Below, one piece after another: positions 6,001-12,000 of a stretch of 12,738 nucleotides of DNA. Every line of letters begins with the position of its first letter. The first letter of the stretch is position 1. Position numbers: made by a program. Source of the DNA: a virus (taxonomy: Duplodnaviria; Heunggongvirae; Uroviricota; Caudoviricetes). The stretch lies in the IMG/VR virus record IMGVR_UViG_2802429224_000008, positions 1-12,738 of that record. One strand, 5' to 3'.

Positions 6001-9000
6001 AGCATGTTTTTTACGTGCTGATGTTCCAGCCTGAAAGCGAAGAAGATTAATTTTTTCTCGCGTGTAGGGTGAAAATTTTGCGGGTTATGCGGGTTATTTC
6101 TGTGGATAAATCAGTATCCATATGATTATTAAAGGAATGACAGGAAAATCGTAACCCGCAAAATACCCAAAATAACCCGCAAAACGGCAGTTATAACCCG
6201 CAAAAGTGCGATTATAACCCGCAGAATTTCACAGTAAGGGTGTAAACAAGCGTAACTATCAACGTTAAAACCGGAGAGCAGACAGCATGACAGCACAGAT
6301 AGCGGCTTACGGGCGGCTGGTGGCTGACCCGCAGTTAAAGACCACCAGCAAGGGGACACAAATGGCGATGGCGAGTATGGCGGTTCCCCTGCCGTGCAGC
6401 CAGGCAGATGACGGAACGGCGACGATGTGGTTATCCGTCCTGGCGTTTGGCAGACAGGCCGACGCACTGGCAAAGCACCAGAAAGGCGAACTGGTGAGCG
6501 TGGCGGGTAACATGCAGGTAAGCCAGTGGACAGGTCAGAACGGCGAAACGCGGCAGGGCTGGCAGGTTATCGCAGACAGCGTAATCAGTGCGCGGACGGC
6601 GCGACCGGGCGGCAAAAAAGGCCAGCAGGGCCAGGCTACTGACGCACTGAACAGGGCGAAACAACAGACAGGCCAGCACGATGACCCGTACGGGGATAAC
6701 ATACCGTTTTAATTCACAGCAGCGAACAGAGTAATTACAGGGGAAGGCATGACAAAGCTGACCATTAACCGAAAACCGAAAGGCATTTACGGCACGCCGC
6801 AGAAAACGACGCAGGCGGCACAGCAGCAGGATAAAACCACGTCGGCGCATAAAGTGATGCCCGATAATCAGAACGCACAGCAGAGCCGCAAACAGAAGCC
6901 CACTGGGGTGACACCGTGGCGGCATATGACCAAACGCCAGCGCAAAAACCGCAGACGCGTTAACCGCCTCACTGAGTTGTGGCCTGACTTATTCAGCCGG
7001 GAAGCACCGAAGCCGCTTAAGGTGGGGATATTCGACGACCTGATGCAGGATCTCGCCGTCAGGGGGCTGGCATTCGGGCCAGGGGCATTACGTGCGACGC
7101 TGGCATCTTATGCGCAGTCTCCGCGCTATTACCGCGCCTTAATGGCTGGTGGTGCACGTTACGACCTGAAAGGCCAGCCATGTGGAGATGTGACACCACA
7201 GGAACAACAGGACGCAGAAACGCGGCTGATGATGCTGAATGAGAAGCGCAAGCATCAGGCGGCAAAGGAGAAGACAGGCGCATGATTCGTGACAGCAAAG
7301 CGGAAGAACTGGAGACTAAAGGCCTGTACCGGAGAGCGGCGGCGCGGTGGGCTGAGGTCATGCAGCTGGTGAACACCGATAAGGAGCGCGAACAGGTGGC
7401 AAAGTGTCGCGCGGAATGCATCCGTAAGGCAGCACGCCCACCTGTTATGGCGGATAACTTCGGGGCACTGAAAGAGGCTGTAAACCGCACTCATGCGGTG
7501 ATGGGGATGGAAGACGCGGGTAAATCCGTCTGGCGGAACTACCCGAAGCAGCCTGGCAGTAACCAGTGATGCCGGATATTATCCTGAAAAATGACCATCA
7601 CTCCCGTGGGCGGATAATATAAAATCCCGCATATGCGCACATACACAGACGAAGCCGGAACACTCCGGCTTTTTTTACGGGTCCTCCTGATGGGGTACCC
7701 TTACCGCGGGGCGACGGACGCGCGGGAATCGCCAAATTTTCGCATTTTTATCGGTCATCACCACCAGCGCAATTTATTGATAATGAAGGTTAAAAAAATT
7801 CCTGGTGTCGAAAACGCCTGTTTTTTGTTCATCACTGAATCATGCGCATCATGATACCAGGATACCCGGTATTGCTGCGTGATAACCCACAGGGCTGGTG
7901 ACGATGCGTTATGGTCTGTGCGTTGCCATCCTCCTGACCTGATGGCATTATCCGGCATGAACGAGCGGTTATTCTCCGTACTCTTAATCGTTGTTCATGG
8001 TTATTTGCTTTGTGGTAGCTGACATTTCCTGATGGCTTTTATCCTTCCGCCCCGTAATCACGGGGTATTTTTTTATCTGTGATTTGTTGTTCTTCGCTGT
8101 GTTGGTATGGGGAGTTCTGGCAATGATTCAGGCCGTCGCTTTCCTGGTACGTGATTTTTTACGTTCATTATTGTGCTGGTGGTAGTGTCACGGCACGTCA
8201 CGATATGTCACTATCACGTCACGCTGATGGCAAAAGCCAGGGTTAACCAGTACCGGAACGGGTAGCCCGATGTATTGTTACCGTCCTGCCGGCTGGTGGA
8301 GTAATTGATAACGGTTATCATCAACGGGAGGGGAGGATCAAATCCCTGTAGTCCTGGCCGTCCGGGACCGCCCGCCAACCCTTCTTCGCATCGCCGCAGG
8401 TTCGAAAACTTTTTTTGGGAAGGTGCGCACAGAGTTGATAGATAAAACCTATCAGAAGAAGTAGCATCAAACCCGCGCCATTGCTGGCATCGTTAAAAAA
8501 ACTCACTCCACCAGCAGGCCAAAAAACCGTGATTTTTCCGGTTTTATGGGCTGAAAAGGGTCTCCCTAAAAAACACCTCTCACACTGTCGGAGGGGATGG
8601 ATAATTTTCACGGGTCCTTTCCGGAGGTCTGAATACCGGGGGTACGGGTACGCGCAATTCTCAACTGTTTATGAAAATTTTTCGGGAAAAGTCAGATCCG
8701 TTCTTCTTCTCTGTAACTCATTGTTTAATCGTAAAATCATCAAAAAAAGAAAGGATCTGACAGTGGTCATTCTGGGCTAAAAATGACGTTATCAGATCCT
8801 TTCTCAGTTTTGTTCAATAATTGCGCGGCTGTCACTCACCTTTCTGTTGCCGTAATTTCTCCGGCACGTTTCCGGTTGTTTCCATCAGGTAGTCCTTCAG
8901 AATGCGGGGCAGGTTATCGGCAGTTTTAGCGCACGCATTACAGACGCGTGCTGTTTCTTTCCTCAGGCCCTCGATCATTGCCGGAGTCATCGCGGGGAAC

Positions 9001-12000
9001 TGCCTTTGCATTGTGAGCGGTAAACTATCCATGATCGAAGAAATCTGGCGCGCCAGACCACGAAGCGCATAGAGAACGAACTCAGTATCTGTAACTTCCC
9101 CCGTCTCCCTGGCGTTCTTCAGTTCCTGCCCGTCTGCCTGTGCTTTGGTGAGGCGGTAGCGTTCGTACTCTGTTGTGCCTGGCTGTAAATCTGATTCACC
9201 AGCAGCACGTAAATCATCAGGCTCCCTGCGGAGTTTTTCATTTTCGATGTCCTTCTCCCTCTGTGCATACCATTCGATCACCTGTGCAGAATTGAATGCC
9301 ACCTCCACACCTTTACCGCCACCAGATACATGAGGAAGCCCTTGCGTCTGCCAGCCTTCAATTGTGCGCGGATCAACACCGAAAATCTCCGCCAGTCTCT
9401 TTTTGTTAACATTCATTTATCAAATCCTCATCAAAAAACACCTCCGACATGAAATGTCAGGAAAACGGGATTTTATGGCGTTATGGTGTCGGAGGTTTCA
9501 GATTGTTGATTTTAATAAAAACAAACAGTTATGCGCGAGAAGTACCGACACGCTTTTCCCCTGAAAAATTTTCATAAACAGTTAAGAATTGCGCGTACCC
9601 GTCCCCCCGGCGCTTAAGGTTCCGGGAAGGACCCGCAGGAGATAGCTACCGTAAGGCGTAATTAAATATCCGGGGATGTGCCACGAAACAACCTGCTGAA
9701 TGCAGGTCAGCGTGATGACGGGAAATAAAGAGAATATACGGGAAGGAAAAAAATATTAGTTTGAAAACTAATGTCCAATTAAACTCTAACATGCGTCCCT
9801 GTAAACAATAACAAGTAAGCAATCAGAGTCTTTCTAATTTACGGGAGGATACTCCCGTACTTTTTTAAAGGCAACGTGAATTGCAACGTTTGTGATGTTT
9901 ACGGGTAAACAGTAACGCTTTTGATATGAATGTTTTTATCTGGTTGCTGTTTTTATTCAGTTAATGTTTATAGGGAATCTTTCAATGAAAAAAACACTGA
10001 TTGCGCTGGCGGTGGCGGCTTCTGCTGTGGTGTCTGGTTCTGCGATGGCTGCTGGCTGGGAACAAAACGGTACGGGTACTGATGTTGTGCTGGGAGGCAC
10101 ACTGACCCCGGTTGCGAAGGTAACTCCGTGGGAAGTAAAAACGGGTGATGCGGTAACTAACCTTGATGCGCAGGTTCAGAAAGGGCAAACCTCTGTCACT
10201 GTTAGTGTAAACCAGGCAATCCCTGTTCTGGGTATTCGTACTCAAACTGCGGATGTGTTCACGGGGATTGCCGGGATTTCTCCGCAGGTTGATTATGGTG
10301 GTGCGATTGATGTAAACGGTTTTTCTGCCGGGGTGACCACCCTGACTCTGGATGTGACTGATGCTAATGGTGAGAAAATGGGCACCATGTCCGCTCCATT
10401 TTTAGCCGGTGCCGGGGTGTCTCGTACAGGCTCCAGCGAAGATGCATATTCTGCCTATGTTTATGACGGTTATGATGTATCTTCCTTTAAAGGCGGACTT
10501 GGTGCTTCTGCAGAGCAAATATTGCCGGATCTGGCTACGGTGATTAGCCGTGTAGGTGCACTTGATTCTGGATTCACTGCTAATTTTAATCAACAGGGTT
10601 TAGCTAGCGGCAGCGTATGGCGCTCAACTCCATTTGAAAATACGGAAACCCAATATAGTGGCTTCTACGGCTCTGGTATTGAATCTGGCAGCAAAATTGC
10701 CATCACTCTTGATACGGCAGTTTCCGGTGATGGTGAGATTGCGTGGAAAGCTTCCCTGCCGGTGACTGTTACCTACATGTAATTTAGCGTCTCGTTAAAT
10801 TATTAAAACAAGCGGCGACGTTCTCCGTCGTCGCTTTGTTTCCTTCCCTTCAGTAACACCATATCCCGCTAAAGCTCTGACATAAATTTTTGTTGTCTGG
10901 TTGCGAATTCTCACCCTGGTGAATCTCCTGCACTACCTGTAATTTTTACGCAAAAAACCCTGGCATTTCTAAGCATGGTTATCGCAAATTTTGCGCAAAA
11001 CACCTTAACAATTCTTAACATCGATGCGCAGTTTTTACGGCCCGGGATAATGGTGGTTTTATACGCTATATAGTTCGTTATATGTTGAGCAAGAAACAGC
11101 CAAAATCAACATGGTAAAAATATATTCTGTTAAAATTCAACACATTAATAAGATGATGATGATGGATAAAAATTCAAAAATTAGCCTTTTTCCGCGCGTC
11201 CGTCGCCCCGCGGTAAGGGTACCCATCCAGGAGGACCCACGACGATCGGGGCGTTTCATCAACGTCATGCGTTATGCCGGATTAACTGCGTACGTAATAC
11301 GTACGGACATCGGGACAAAGACGAACAGTATTCTGGTTCAGTGCAAAACAACGTTAAACGTGGTTTTGCGTCCTGAGAGTCATCGTAATGGTTTTATGCG
11401 CCCTGCGTTGCGCTGGTGGGCTTTTCCACTATTAGTGGGAAACATGGCACCACATCCACCAGCTTAAACACGCTTCACCTTCCCGTTATCAGTCGCCACA
11501 ATTACGGCATTGTTTTCCATCACCACGGAGGCCATAACGATGACCGAAGCCGAAATGCTCAAAATGATTCGCCAGATTGCCGGGATCAGACCACCAGCAG
11601 GCAAACAGGAGGCCACGCAGCCGGACAGCGTTATCGCTGAGAACTATGCGCGTGTGGTGGCTGAGGTGATGCGCCGTGACGGTATCGAGCTAAACGGCGT
11701 TGATATGCGCGACATACGAATCAGAGTTCTGGAGATGTTGTCATATCGTCGCCGCGTGGAGATGTACCGGGAGAGCGAGAAAAATACTTACCAGTGGAAG
11801 AAGCCAGAGCGATTACGGCGGTAACCAGTTGATAAAAAGGCTCCTCAATTTTGAGGAGGGTAGCTGGTGGTGGTAAGCCGTTGATTAAGAGGCGGCTCAA
11901 AATTGAGCCGGGTTGCTGGTGGTGATAACTCATTGAGATTAAAGCAAAGCGCAAAATTGCGCCCTGTAGCTAGTGGCTGGCAGAATGTAAATTTACATTC

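What the first reader, a model, noticed from the sequence alone, without database searches (positions are those of the whole stretch)
8611..9637. Orphan Nu1-like small terminase gene flanked by two lambda-cos-like sequences in opposite orientation
Seen directly: 8611-8690 and the reverse complement of 9557-9637 share about 78 bp at roughly 85% identity, including a 40-bp block with one mismatch. Both copies continue into sequence co-linear with the lambda cosN-cosB left end as I recall it. The Nu1-like gene (8832-9416, minus) lies between them, so cos2 is in the native cos-to-Nu1 arrangement while cos1 points at the 3' end of the gene. Two complete, inverted cos sites around a terS with no terL is not a phage arrangement I know, and would let packaging start in either direction on a replicating island.
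Basis: partly seen in the sequence, partly recalled or inferred. Interest (0 to 1): 0.85.

Follow-up and report, generated by a model that had tools for sequence, protein, structure and literature searches.

The report
Satellite island's two-way DNA-packaging module
This is the DNA-packaging module of a phage-parasitising chromosomal island in E. coli-like bacteria: its own small terminase gene sits between two inward-facing phage cut sites (cos) that carry different recognition sequences, a layout already known from a related island but here more elaborate and found flipped in nature.

Summary
Window 8611-8686 and 9560-9635 form a 76-nt inverted repeat (84%), far beyond chance. Both arms align with the lambda and phage 21 cos sites, and a Nu1-family small terminase gene (8832-9416, minus) lies between them.

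The setting is a cos-type phage-inducible chromosomal island (PICI) of the EcCICFT073 family, with no large terminase. The "unknown arrangement" is not new. EcCICFT073's published, functional cos1 and cos2 are also convergent, and they flank rppA.

What I add:
- **Different cosB types.** The terS-proximal site has phage-21-type R boxes that match the island TerS recognition helix. The distal site has a second phage type, found in lambdoid prophages whose TerL is 98% identical to that of 21-type relatives.
- **Conservation.** The pair is present in all 20 related islands examined. The distal cosB is far more conserved (d 0.006-0.038) than terS synonymous sites (0.10-0.25).
- **Inversion.** The cos-bounded segment is inverted between ~96% identical islands.
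- **A second pair.** A Fels-1/mEp460-type cos-like pair (7679+, 11238-) encloses the first.

Most likely it is a multi-helper packaging module. This is a new variant of a known kind, of moderate interest.

The parts
8832..9416 (-). Island small terminase gene (TerS, Nu1 family, 194 aa). The N-terminal winged helix-turn-helix is of phage 21 type (GVDPRTIEGWQ). The C-terminal half and a 12-aa tail are specific to this island lineage.
   Evidence: Pfam PF07471 E = 1.9e-67. phrog_57 E = 9e-63. Alignment with lambda Nu1, 21 gp1 and island and phage relatives. dN/dS 0.12-0.35 against eight orthologues. Best phage match to the C-terminal 91 aa is only 52.6%.
Elements: cosQ 9634-9628; predicted 12-nt cohesive end GGGGACGGGTAC (9606-9595); I2 block about 9578-9564; R3 9553-9536 (GCGTGTCGGTACTTCTCG, 17 of 18 positions shared with phage 21 R3); R2 about 9484-9497; R1 9452-9438 (CATGTCGGAGGTGTT). 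It corresponds to EcCICFT073 cos1.
   Evidence: Alignments. Phage 21 R boxes are annotated in M81255. The same site is present upstream of terS in all related islands.
8611..8810 (+). Elements: cosQ 8612-8618; predicted cohesive end GGGTACGGGTAC (8640-8651); I2 block 8668-8682; R3 8691-8708 (GTCAGATCCGTTCTTCTT); R2 8744-8761 (inverted); R1 8790-8807. The cosB is a second phage type (GATCC core). It corresponds to EcCICFT073 cos2.
   Evidence: R3 and R2 form an 18-nt, 89% inverted repeat. An 18-nt core of R3 (CAGATCCGTTCTTCTTCT) is identical to that of the ETEC1746 prophage cos, which is followed by terS and terL, and of 13 phage-size IMG/VR contigs. R2 and R1 are invariant in 23 loci. Divergence is 0.006-0.038, against 0.10-0.25 at terS synonymous sites.
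8608..9635 (.). Segment bounded by the two cos arms. It occurs in both orientations relative to the island backbone.
   Evidence: L002 and L013 are about 96% identical, but this ~1040-bp segment is inverted, with the breakpoints inside the cos arms. Window 8608-9635 is inverted relative to L016. Orientation tally.
7679..7770 (+). Outer cos-like site (cos3) of a different class: GGGTCCTCC...GGGGCGACGGACGCGCGG...TCATCACCACCAGCG. It sits directly after a stem-loop followed by a T-run at 7652-7676.
   Evidence: Read directly. The same class was found by pattern in L001, L018, L019, L037, L038, L043, L044 and L047. The class lies between Rz and the terminase genes of phage PhiR40_1.
11150..11240 (-). 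Outer cos-like site (cos4), convergent partner of cos3: GGGTCCTCCTGGATGGGTACCCTTACCGCGGGGCGACGGACGCGCGG...CATCATCATCATC.
   Evidence: It matches the cos region of mEp460, phi458, VT1-Sakai, Stx2 phages and Fels-1 at 71-80%. The whole block, window 7679-11238, is inverted relative to L019.
1..7569 (+). Island backbone that identifies the element as a Gram-negative PICI: integrase 1-1242, AlpA 1757-1963, DUF4222 3616-3930, DUF927 primase/helicase 3927-6050, SSB 6287-6712, ProQ/FinO 6749-7285, PerC 7282-7569.
   Evidence: Pfam and PHROGs. The gene order matches EcCICFT073 and the islands in E. coli A36 and U90.

Best explanation
The feature is the packaging module of a cos-type phage-inducible chromosomal island (PICI) of the EcCICFT073 family. 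The island has no large terminase and no capsid genes, so it must be packaged by a lambdoid helper phage.

Shown here:
- Both arms are complete lambda-type cos sites.
- The terS-proximal site has phage-21-type R boxes that match the 21-type recognition helix of the island's own TerS.
- The distal, convergent site has a second R-box type (GATCC core). That type is the native cosB of a group of E. coli lambdoid prophages.
- Sister prophages with 98% identical TerL use the 21-type boxes instead.

Inferred:
- The island TerS, alone or in mixed oligomers with helper TerS, brings the helper's TerL to the proximal cos. This gives island-specific packaging.
- The distal cos lets the unmodified terminase of GATCC-type helpers package the island as well.
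- The outer pair extends the range to Fels-1/mEp460-type terminases.
- Each site would start unit-length packaging on island concatemers, in opposite directions.
- Inverted orientation is the only stable way to carry several cos sites. Direct repeats would let terminase end a run at the wrong site and lose the DNA in between.
- As a by-product, the inverted arms recombine and flip the enclosed segment.
For: Identity as a PICI: int, alpA, primase, SSB and PerC are present, there are no structural genes, and the gene order matches EcCICFT073.

cos anatomy comes from alignment with lambda and phage 21.

Pairing of helix and boxes: TerS proteins with VDPRTIE(R/G)WQ sit next to TGTCGG boxes (phage 21, L020, L021, L024 and all the islands). 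Those with CDVRTITGWQ sit next to GATCC boxes (L011, L022, L023, L025-L036). Both phage variants carry the same TerL at 98% identity.

Precedent: EcCICFT073 has two cos sites, both functional. cos1 is used with the island factor Rpp (PMC6092414, PMC6739421). They are convergent around rppA.

Conservation: the convergent pair around terS is seen in the window, L001, L002, L010, L012-L019, L038, L039, L041-L044, L048 and L049. The distal cosB diverges 5-30 times more slowly than terS synonymous sites, and TerS is under purifying selection.

Inversions have their breakpoints in the arms.
Against: No experiment or read data show that either site is cut.

The TerS C-terminal half, where Nu1 binds gpA, is at most 52.6% identical to any sequenced phage. 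Compatibility with a given helper TerL is therefore unproven.

In EcCICFT073, deleting the distal site (cos2) raised transfer by lambda and phi80 (PMC6092414). With a helper that does not match it, a second site costs rather than helps.

terS is frameshifted in L001, truncated in L037 and deleted in L047. It is therefore dispensable in some islands.

The native cosB evolves at about the neutral rate overall.

The metagenome loci were selected with the distal R3 pattern, so R3 invariance in those 12 loci is by construction.
Confidence: 0.6

Rival explanations
1. Regulated inversion switch. The cos-bounded segment flips by recombination between the arms, possibly stimulated by terminase cuts at cos. 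This sets whether terS and its cos are co-directional with the island's operon (expressed) or antisense (silent). The island would thereby toggle between self-directed packaging and helper-type packaging.
For: Both orientations occur in two different backbones, and in nearly identical islands (L002 against L013; window against L016). In EcCICFT073 and the O55:H7 island, the gene reads in the same direction as the operon that runs into it. No convincing promoter was found for the antisense terS in the window: the scan found 5 sites against 5.6 expected.
Against: There is no evidence of mixed orientations within one population. No invertase is encoded. Inversion between 76-100-bp inverted repeats is expected as a passive by-product. 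A stem-loop with a T-run (7652-7676, read directly; not listed by the scan) already separates the operon from the module.
Confidence: 0.15
2. Decoy or interference site. The distal phage-type cos does not serve island transfer. Instead it titrates or misdirects the helper's own terminase, which lowers helper yield.
For: The distal cosB copies the helper-type R boxes almost exactly and is strongly conserved. Deleting EcCICFT073 cos2 did not reduce transfer and in fact increased it (PMC6092414). PICIs are known to interfere with helper packaging (PMC6739421).
Against: A single site per island copy is a weak sink. The cloned EcCICFT073 cos2 did support plasmid transfer, so such sites are usable for packaging.
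Confidence: 0.15
3. Non-functional relic. The second cos is debris from recombination between an island and a helper phage at cos, and it is carried along with terS.
For: The cosQ-cosN parts of the arms are mosaic. At least five cosN variants are shuffled among the islands, which shows frequent recombination at cos.
Against: All elements from I2 to R1 are intact in 23 loci. Divergence is 0.006-0.038, against 0.15-0.18 in the native cosB and 0.10-0.25 at terS synonymous sites. The pair is retained even where terS is lost (L047).
Confidence: 0.07
4. A decayed lambdoid prophage end rather than a satellite.
For: cos plus a Nu1 homologue is the left end of lambdoid genomes. One phage-database hit, SerU-LTIIb, is a prophage remnant with a similar cos.
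Against: The element has a PICI backbone with int, alpA and primase. It is 12-14 kb long, occurs as a conserved family at several attachment sites, and lacks terL, portal and tail genes.
Confidence: 0.03

Closest known systems
EcCICFT073 (prototype Gram-negative cos PICI) packaging module: cos1 - rppA - cos2
   Same: Same island family and gene order. Two cos sites converge on the packaging-specificity gene. The proximal site has a cosB different from the tested helpers', and it is read by the island's own factor. Both sites were shown to be functional (PMC6092414, PMC6739421).
   Different: The gene here is a full-length Nu1-family TerS (194 aa), not the 144-aa Rpp, and no rpp homologue is present. 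Both cosB regions have the full R3-I1-R2-R1 layout of recognisable phage types. cosN differs from lambda's. There is an extra outer cos pair. The window island lacks the capsid and decoration genes of EcCICFT073. The convergent orientation is not mentioned in the main texts searched.
TerS-encoding E. coli PICIs noted in strains IHE3034 and 18098 (PMC6092414)
   Same: They are described as E. coli PICIs that encode TerS. This window is most likely of that kind.
   Different: Those islands transferred poorly or not at all, and their cos sites and mechanism were not described. I did not retrieve their sequences, so identity with this module is not tested.
cos-terminase region of phage 21 and phage lambda (cosQ-cosN-cosB, Nu1/gp1, A/gp2)
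   Same: Same order and spacing of cosQ, cosN, I2, R3, I1, R2 and R1, followed by the small terminase gene. The proximal R3 matches phage 21 R3 at 17 of 18 positions, and the recognition helix is of 21 type.
   Different: There is no large terminase. A second cos lies in inverted orientation after the gene. The TerS C-terminal half is divergent and carries an extra tail.
SaPI TerS (pac-type staphylococcal islands) and the two putative cos sites of SaPIbov4
   Same: The logic is the same: a satellite encodes its own small terminase to redirect the helper's large terminase. SaPIbov4 is cited as also having two putative cos sites (PMC6092414).
   Different: The proteins are unrelated, and SaPI TerS works with headful (pac) packaging in Gram-positive hosts. 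Nothing was tested here.

Membership tests
Phage_Nu1 small terminase (PF07471) | Full-length match to the family profile above the curated cut-off | tested here: met
   226.4 bits against a cut-off of 30, residues 1-162 on profile positions 1-162 of 164. phrog_57 E = 9e-63.
Phage_Nu1 small terminase (PF07471) | N-terminal winged helix-turn-helix that pairs with R boxes of the adjacent cosB | tested here: met
   The helix VDPRTIE(G/R)WQ co-occurs with TGTCGG boxes, and CDVRTITGWQ with GATCC boxes, across 20 or more loci. Binding itself was not tested.
Phage_Nu1 small terminase (PF07471) | C-terminal segment binds the cognate large terminase (gpA) | not testable with these tools
   No TerL is present in the island. 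The C-terminal 91 aa are at most 52.6% identical to any phage TerS.
Lambda-type cos site | cosQ, cosN, I2 and cosB (R3 forward, R2 inverted, R1 forward) in lambda order and spacing | tested here: met
   Both arms align column for column with lambda and phage 21. R3 and R2 of the distal site form an 18-nt inverted repeat.
Lambda-type cos site | Staggered nicking that gives 12-nt cohesive ends | not testable with these tools
   Predicted ends are GGGTACGGGTAC and GGGGACGGGTAC, by alignment only.
Gram-negative PICI (EcCICFT073 family) | int at one end, alpA regulator, pri-rep module, about 10-15 kb, no phage structural or lysis genes | tested here: met
   int 1-1242, AlpA 1757-1963, primase 3927-6050. 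The orthologous island in E. coli A36 spans about 14 kb inside yifB. No TerL is present.
Gram-negative PICI (EcCICFT073 family) | Induction, replication and high-frequency transfer dependent on a helper phage | not testable with these tools
   This needs experiments. It has been shown only for EcCICFT073 (PMC6092414).
Rpp-type packaging redirection | An rpp gene (139-154 aa, winged HTH plus dimerisation helices, no TerL-binding tail) | tested here: not met
   tblastn with RppA finds nothing in the window even at E = 5. The gene between the cos sites is a full Nu1 homologue.

The most novel reading that the evidence does not exclude
Convergent cos sites act as the arms of invertible cassettes, here nested: the inner pair at 8611/9635 and the outer pair at 7679/11238. 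Flipping would be driven by recombination at terminase-cut cos sites during helper growth. It would change which packaging specificity and which cargo orientation lines up with island transcription. That would be a phase-variation-like choice among three helper terminase lineages, made without any dedicated invertase.
Probability: 0.15. Interest if true: 0.75.

Novelty: new variant of a known kind. Interest (0 to 1): 0.5.

Why it matters
How cos-type islands pick their helpers is known for only one case, Rpp in EcCICFT073. The role of that island's second cos site was left unexplained.

This window shows a widespread sister design. A true TerS is paired with a cognate phage-21-type cos. A strongly conserved second cos copies the recognition boxes of a different natural helper group. 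A further pair belongs to a third class.

This gives a concrete, testable reason for multiple cos sites: they widen the range of usable helpers. It explains why they are always convergent. It also predicts which prophages mobilise these islands, which carry cargo such as the K88-like fimbrial gene. Finally, the natural inversions show that cos sites act as recombination arms that reshuffle satellite genomes.

Tried and rejected
- **Sequenced phages with the same cos arm.** I found only one weak hit, a SerU-LTIIb prophage remnant at 76%. No sequenced helper can be named.
- **Species-representative genomes.** An exact-pattern scan for the distal R3 found nothing. The source organism and species range stay unknown. 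The best E. coli match to 8400-9900 is 94.3%.
- **Rpp in the window.** None was found, so membership of the Rpp mechanism is rejected.
- **Rfam on the whole window.** No hits.
- **Promoter scan around the module.** The result is no better than chance, 5 sites against 5.6 expected. How terS is expressed in this orientation is unresolved.
- **ORFs overlapping the cos sites** (7633-7854, 8481-8780, 8321-8611, 11111-11467). They have no family matches and overlap cos sequence, so I treat them as spurious.
- **Cut-and-religate at cosN versus homologous recombination.** I tried to tell these apart from the chimeric arms of L002 and L013. The data fit both.
- **Prophage-remnant idea.** Considered and rejected, as set out under the rival explanations.
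Full report

Yes. The repeat finder gives arms 8611-8686 and 9560-9635, 76 nt, 84% complementary. The local alignment score for this inverted repeat is 47.5. Two hundred shuffles of the region gave 10.7 +/- 1.1, maximum 17. The ORF between the arms (8832-9416, minus, 194 aa) is a full-length Phage_Nu1 protein: Pfam E = 1.9e-67 and phrog_57 E = 9e-63.

**2. Are the arms cos sites?**

I aligned both arms, extended to the gene, with the joined ends of lambda (NC_001416) and with the phage 21 cos region (M81255). 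In M81255 the R boxes and IHF sites are annotated. All four sequences share the same elements in the same order and spacing:
- cosQ (CGGGTCCTT)
- a cosN block
- the I2 block (TTTATGAAAATTTTT)
- R3, an I1-like block (TAACT..TGTTT), then R2 and R1

Two differences matter.

First, cosN is not lambda's. By alignment, the cohesive ends would be GGGTACGGGTAC (8640-8651) and GGGGACGGGTAC (9606-9595, minus strand), against GGGCGGCGACCT in lambda.

Second, the two cosB regions belong to different classes. The terS-proximal site has R3 GCGTGTCGGTACTTCTCG, which matches phage 21 at 17 of 18 positions, and its R2 and R1 contain TGTCGGAGG. The distal site has R3 GTCAGATCCGTTCTTCTT, R2 AAAAAGAAAGGATCTGAC (inverted) and R1 TATCAGATCCTTTCTCAG. 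This is lambda-like in layout, but it has a GATCC core instead of lambda's TTTCC.

**3. What is the element?**

The window encodes the following:

| Coordinates | Product |
|---|---|
| 1-1242 | Integrase |
| 1757-1963 | AlpA |
| 3616-3930 | DUF4222 protein |
| 3927-6050 | DUF927 primase/helicase |
| 6287-6712 | SSB |
| 6749-7285 | ProQ/FinO protein |
| 7282-7569 | PerC |

There is no TerL and no other virion gene.

The same gene order is seen in islands of E. coli A36 and U90. It is also seen in EcCICFT073, which I located in the CFT073 chromosome. The element is therefore a cos-type Gram-negative PICI of the EcCICFT073 family. The best E. coli match to 8400-9900 is 94.3%, so the exact source is not in that collection.

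**4. Is the arrangement unknown?**

No. [quoted passage not shown] Deleting cos2 increased transfer (PMC6092414, PMC6739421).

Using the sequences printed in their Figure S1A and the CFT073 chromosome, I placed both sites. cos1 lies on the plus strand immediately upstream of rppA. cos2 lies on the minus strand about 240 bp downstream of it. They converge on the gene, exactly as here.

The main texts of those papers, and of the Murialdo and Feiss review (PMC9026076), do not mention orientation or inversion. The review does not discuss cos2 at all. The 2018 paper also notes that the islands of strains IHE3034 and 18098 encode TerS, but they transferred poorly and were not analysed further.

**5. 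How general is it?**

An IMG/VR scan with the TerS protein returned 26 loci.
- Eight satellite-size contigs (L012-L019, TerS 88-97% identical) all have the proximal 21-type cos and the convergent GATCC-type cos.
- Phage-size contigs (L020-L036, TerS 59-70% identical) have a single cos, followed by terS and terL.

A metagenome scan with the distal R3 pattern returned 12 more loci. Every contig long enough shows the convergent partner with terS in between. The O55:H7/O157:H7 island next to phoQ has the same layout. Its TerS has a different N-terminal domain and a different proximal cos, but it shares the C-terminal half, the tail and the distal cosB.

In all, I count 20 islands with the pair around terS. 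There is also one with terS deleted but the pair kept (L047), and EcCICFT073 with rppA.

**6. Which proteins read which boxes?**

In the TerS alignment, the recognition-helix region separates into two types. NVDPRTIERWQ occurs in phage 21, L020, L021 and L024, and the islands have GVDPRTIE(R/G)WQ. ECDVRTITGWQ occurs in the ETEC1746 prophage and in L022, L023 and L025-L036.

This split matches the box type of the adjacent cosB: TGTCGG for the first type and GATCC for the second.

The two phage variants are otherwise almost the same phage. Their TerS C-terminal halves are identical or nearly so, and their TerL proteins are 98% identical.

The island therefore carries the recognition sites of both natural specificity variants of one helper lineage. 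It also carries a TerS of its own that matches one of them.

The island TerS C-terminal half and its tail (ETTGNVPEKLRQQKGE) form an island-specific lineage. The best phage match is 52.6%. I therefore cannot say which TerL it binds, or whether it works through mixed oligomers with helper TerS via the well-conserved central region.

**7. Are both sites under selection?**

TerS is under purifying selection, with dN/dS of 0.12-0.35 against eight orthologues.

Over the 164 nt from I2 to the terS stop codon, the distal site differs from those same orthologues at only 1-6 positions (d = 0.006-0.038). terS synonymous sites diverge by 0.10-0.25, and the proximal cosB by 0.15-0.18. R2 and R1 are invariant in 23 loci. 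R3 invariance is partly by construction, because 12 of those loci were found with the R3 pattern.

In contrast, the cosQ-cosN part is mosaic. At least five cosN variants are shuffled among the islands, and the two arms of one island may or may not match.

The distal cosB is thus the most constrained non-coding element of the module. This argues against a relic.

**8. Inversion.**

Relative to the backbone, terS is antisense in the window and in L001, L002, L012, L038, L041, L043 and L044. It is co-directional in L010, L013-L019, L037, L042, L048 and L049.

L002 and L013 are about 96% identical throughout, yet the ~1040-bp cos-bounded segment (98% identical) is inverted. The direct and inverted alignments overlap by about 105 bp inside each arm. 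Window 8608-9635 is likewise inverted relative to L016.

Both backbone types, with and without capsid genes, show both orientations. Inversion has therefore happened more than once.

**9. A second, outer pair.**

The window has two further cos-like sites of another class. One is at 7679-7770 on the plus strand, just after a stem-loop with a T-run. The other is at 11240-11150 on the minus strand. Both carry GGGTCCTCC...GGGGCGACGGACGCGCGG.

This class matches the region upstream of the terminase genes in mEp460, phi458, VT1-Sakai, Stx2 phages and Fels-1. In PhiR40_1 it lies between Rz and a Fels-1-type small ORF followed by a gpA-like TerL.

The pair encloses the terS module and a K88-type fimbrial subunit gene. 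The whole block, 7679-11238, is inverted relative to L019. L001 has the same four sites, in the order + + - -. All sites point inward.

**10. Mechanism.**

Shown: the anatomy, the pairing of helix and box types, the conservation, and the inversions.

Inferred from lambda and phage 21 terminase biology and from the EcCICFT073 experiments:
- On helper induction the island replicates as concatemers.
- Helper TerL is brought to the proximal cos by the island TerS, or by a 21-type helper TerS.
- Helper TerL is brought to the distal cos by a GATCC-type helper TerS.
- Packaging then runs from cosN towards cosB, so the two sites start runs in opposite directions.
- Each run ends at the next copy of the same site. 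An inverted cos presents I2, cosN and cosQ in the wrong order for termination.
- Direct repeats of cos would let a run end at the wrong site and drop the DNA in between. I take this from my knowledge of lambda cos-duplication phages; I did not check it here.
- This would explain why all sites are convergent.
- Inversion follows as a by-product of recombination between the arms, perhaps helped by terminase cuts.

The main weakness is that nothing here shows cutting. Also, in EcCICFT073 the distal site was a net cost with the helpers tested.

**11. Verdict.**

The finding is real and correctly located. The interpretation needs three corrections:
- It is the packaging module of a known kind of satellite.
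- The two-cos layout has a published precedent.
- The two sites are not equivalent.

The new elements are the TerS-type version with two identifiable phage cosB classes, the strong constraint on the distal site, the nested outer pair, and the natural inversions. I rate it a new variant of a known kind, with interest about 0.5.

Noticed in passing
window 7679-7770 (+) and 11150-11240 (-): A second, outer pair of convergent cos-like sites of a different class (Fels-1/mEp460 type) encloses the terS module and the fimbrial gene. The enclosed 3.5-kb block is inverted relative to L019.
   Followed up: yes
window 9964-10782 (+): A lone K88/FaeG-type fimbrial subunit gene (Pfam Fimbrial_K88, E = 2.8e-51, full length) with no usher or chaperone nearby. 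It is cargo inside the outer invertible block. Homologues at 58% identity are present in L001 and L019.
   Followed up: no
window 8568-8594: Just left of the distal cosQ lies AAAAAACACCTCTCACACTGTCGGAGG. It repeats the R1 region of the proximal cos (17 nt, 88%) and contains a 21-type TGTCGGAGG box. An island-TerS-type box may therefore sit beside the helper-type cos.
   Followed up: no
window 9348-9350 (TerS residue 23): The window's TerS has Gly in the recognition helix (TIEGWQ), where all other island and 21-type proteins have Arg (TIERWQ). Its proximal cosB is also 15-18% diverged from the relatives, so protein and site may have co-varied.
   Followed up: partly
L005 32529 and L003 34715 (CFT073 chromosome, about 1,387,528 and 1,424,714): EcCICFT073 cos1 and the cos of the neighbouring 21-type prophage lie in the same orientation, 37.2 kb apart. 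A cos-to-cos run on the chromosome would span phoPQ, purB and icd, and would be near packageable size. This could be a route for transduction of host genes.
   Followed up: no
L047 2969-3492; L037 5001-5279; L001 10434-11017: In some islands terS is decayed: deleted to about 19 codons, truncated after residue 93, or frameshifted. In L047 and L001 the convergent cos pair is still present, so the cos pair outlives the gene. In L037 the distal partner was not detected.
   Followed up: partly
window 11510-11824 (+): A small gene of unknown function (phrog_1561, E = 2e-48) lies beyond the last right-hand cos site in nearly all the islands examined, including EcCICFT073 (L005 33374-33655); in L016-L018 other DNA lies in between. 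It may belong to the packaging region.
   Followed up: no
L021 and L024 versus L022 and L026-L036: Phages with 98% identical TerL and near-identical TerS differ only in the recognition helix (NVDP..ER against ECDV..TG) and in the cosB box type. This is a clean natural swap of packaging specificity within one phage lineage.
   Followed up: partly
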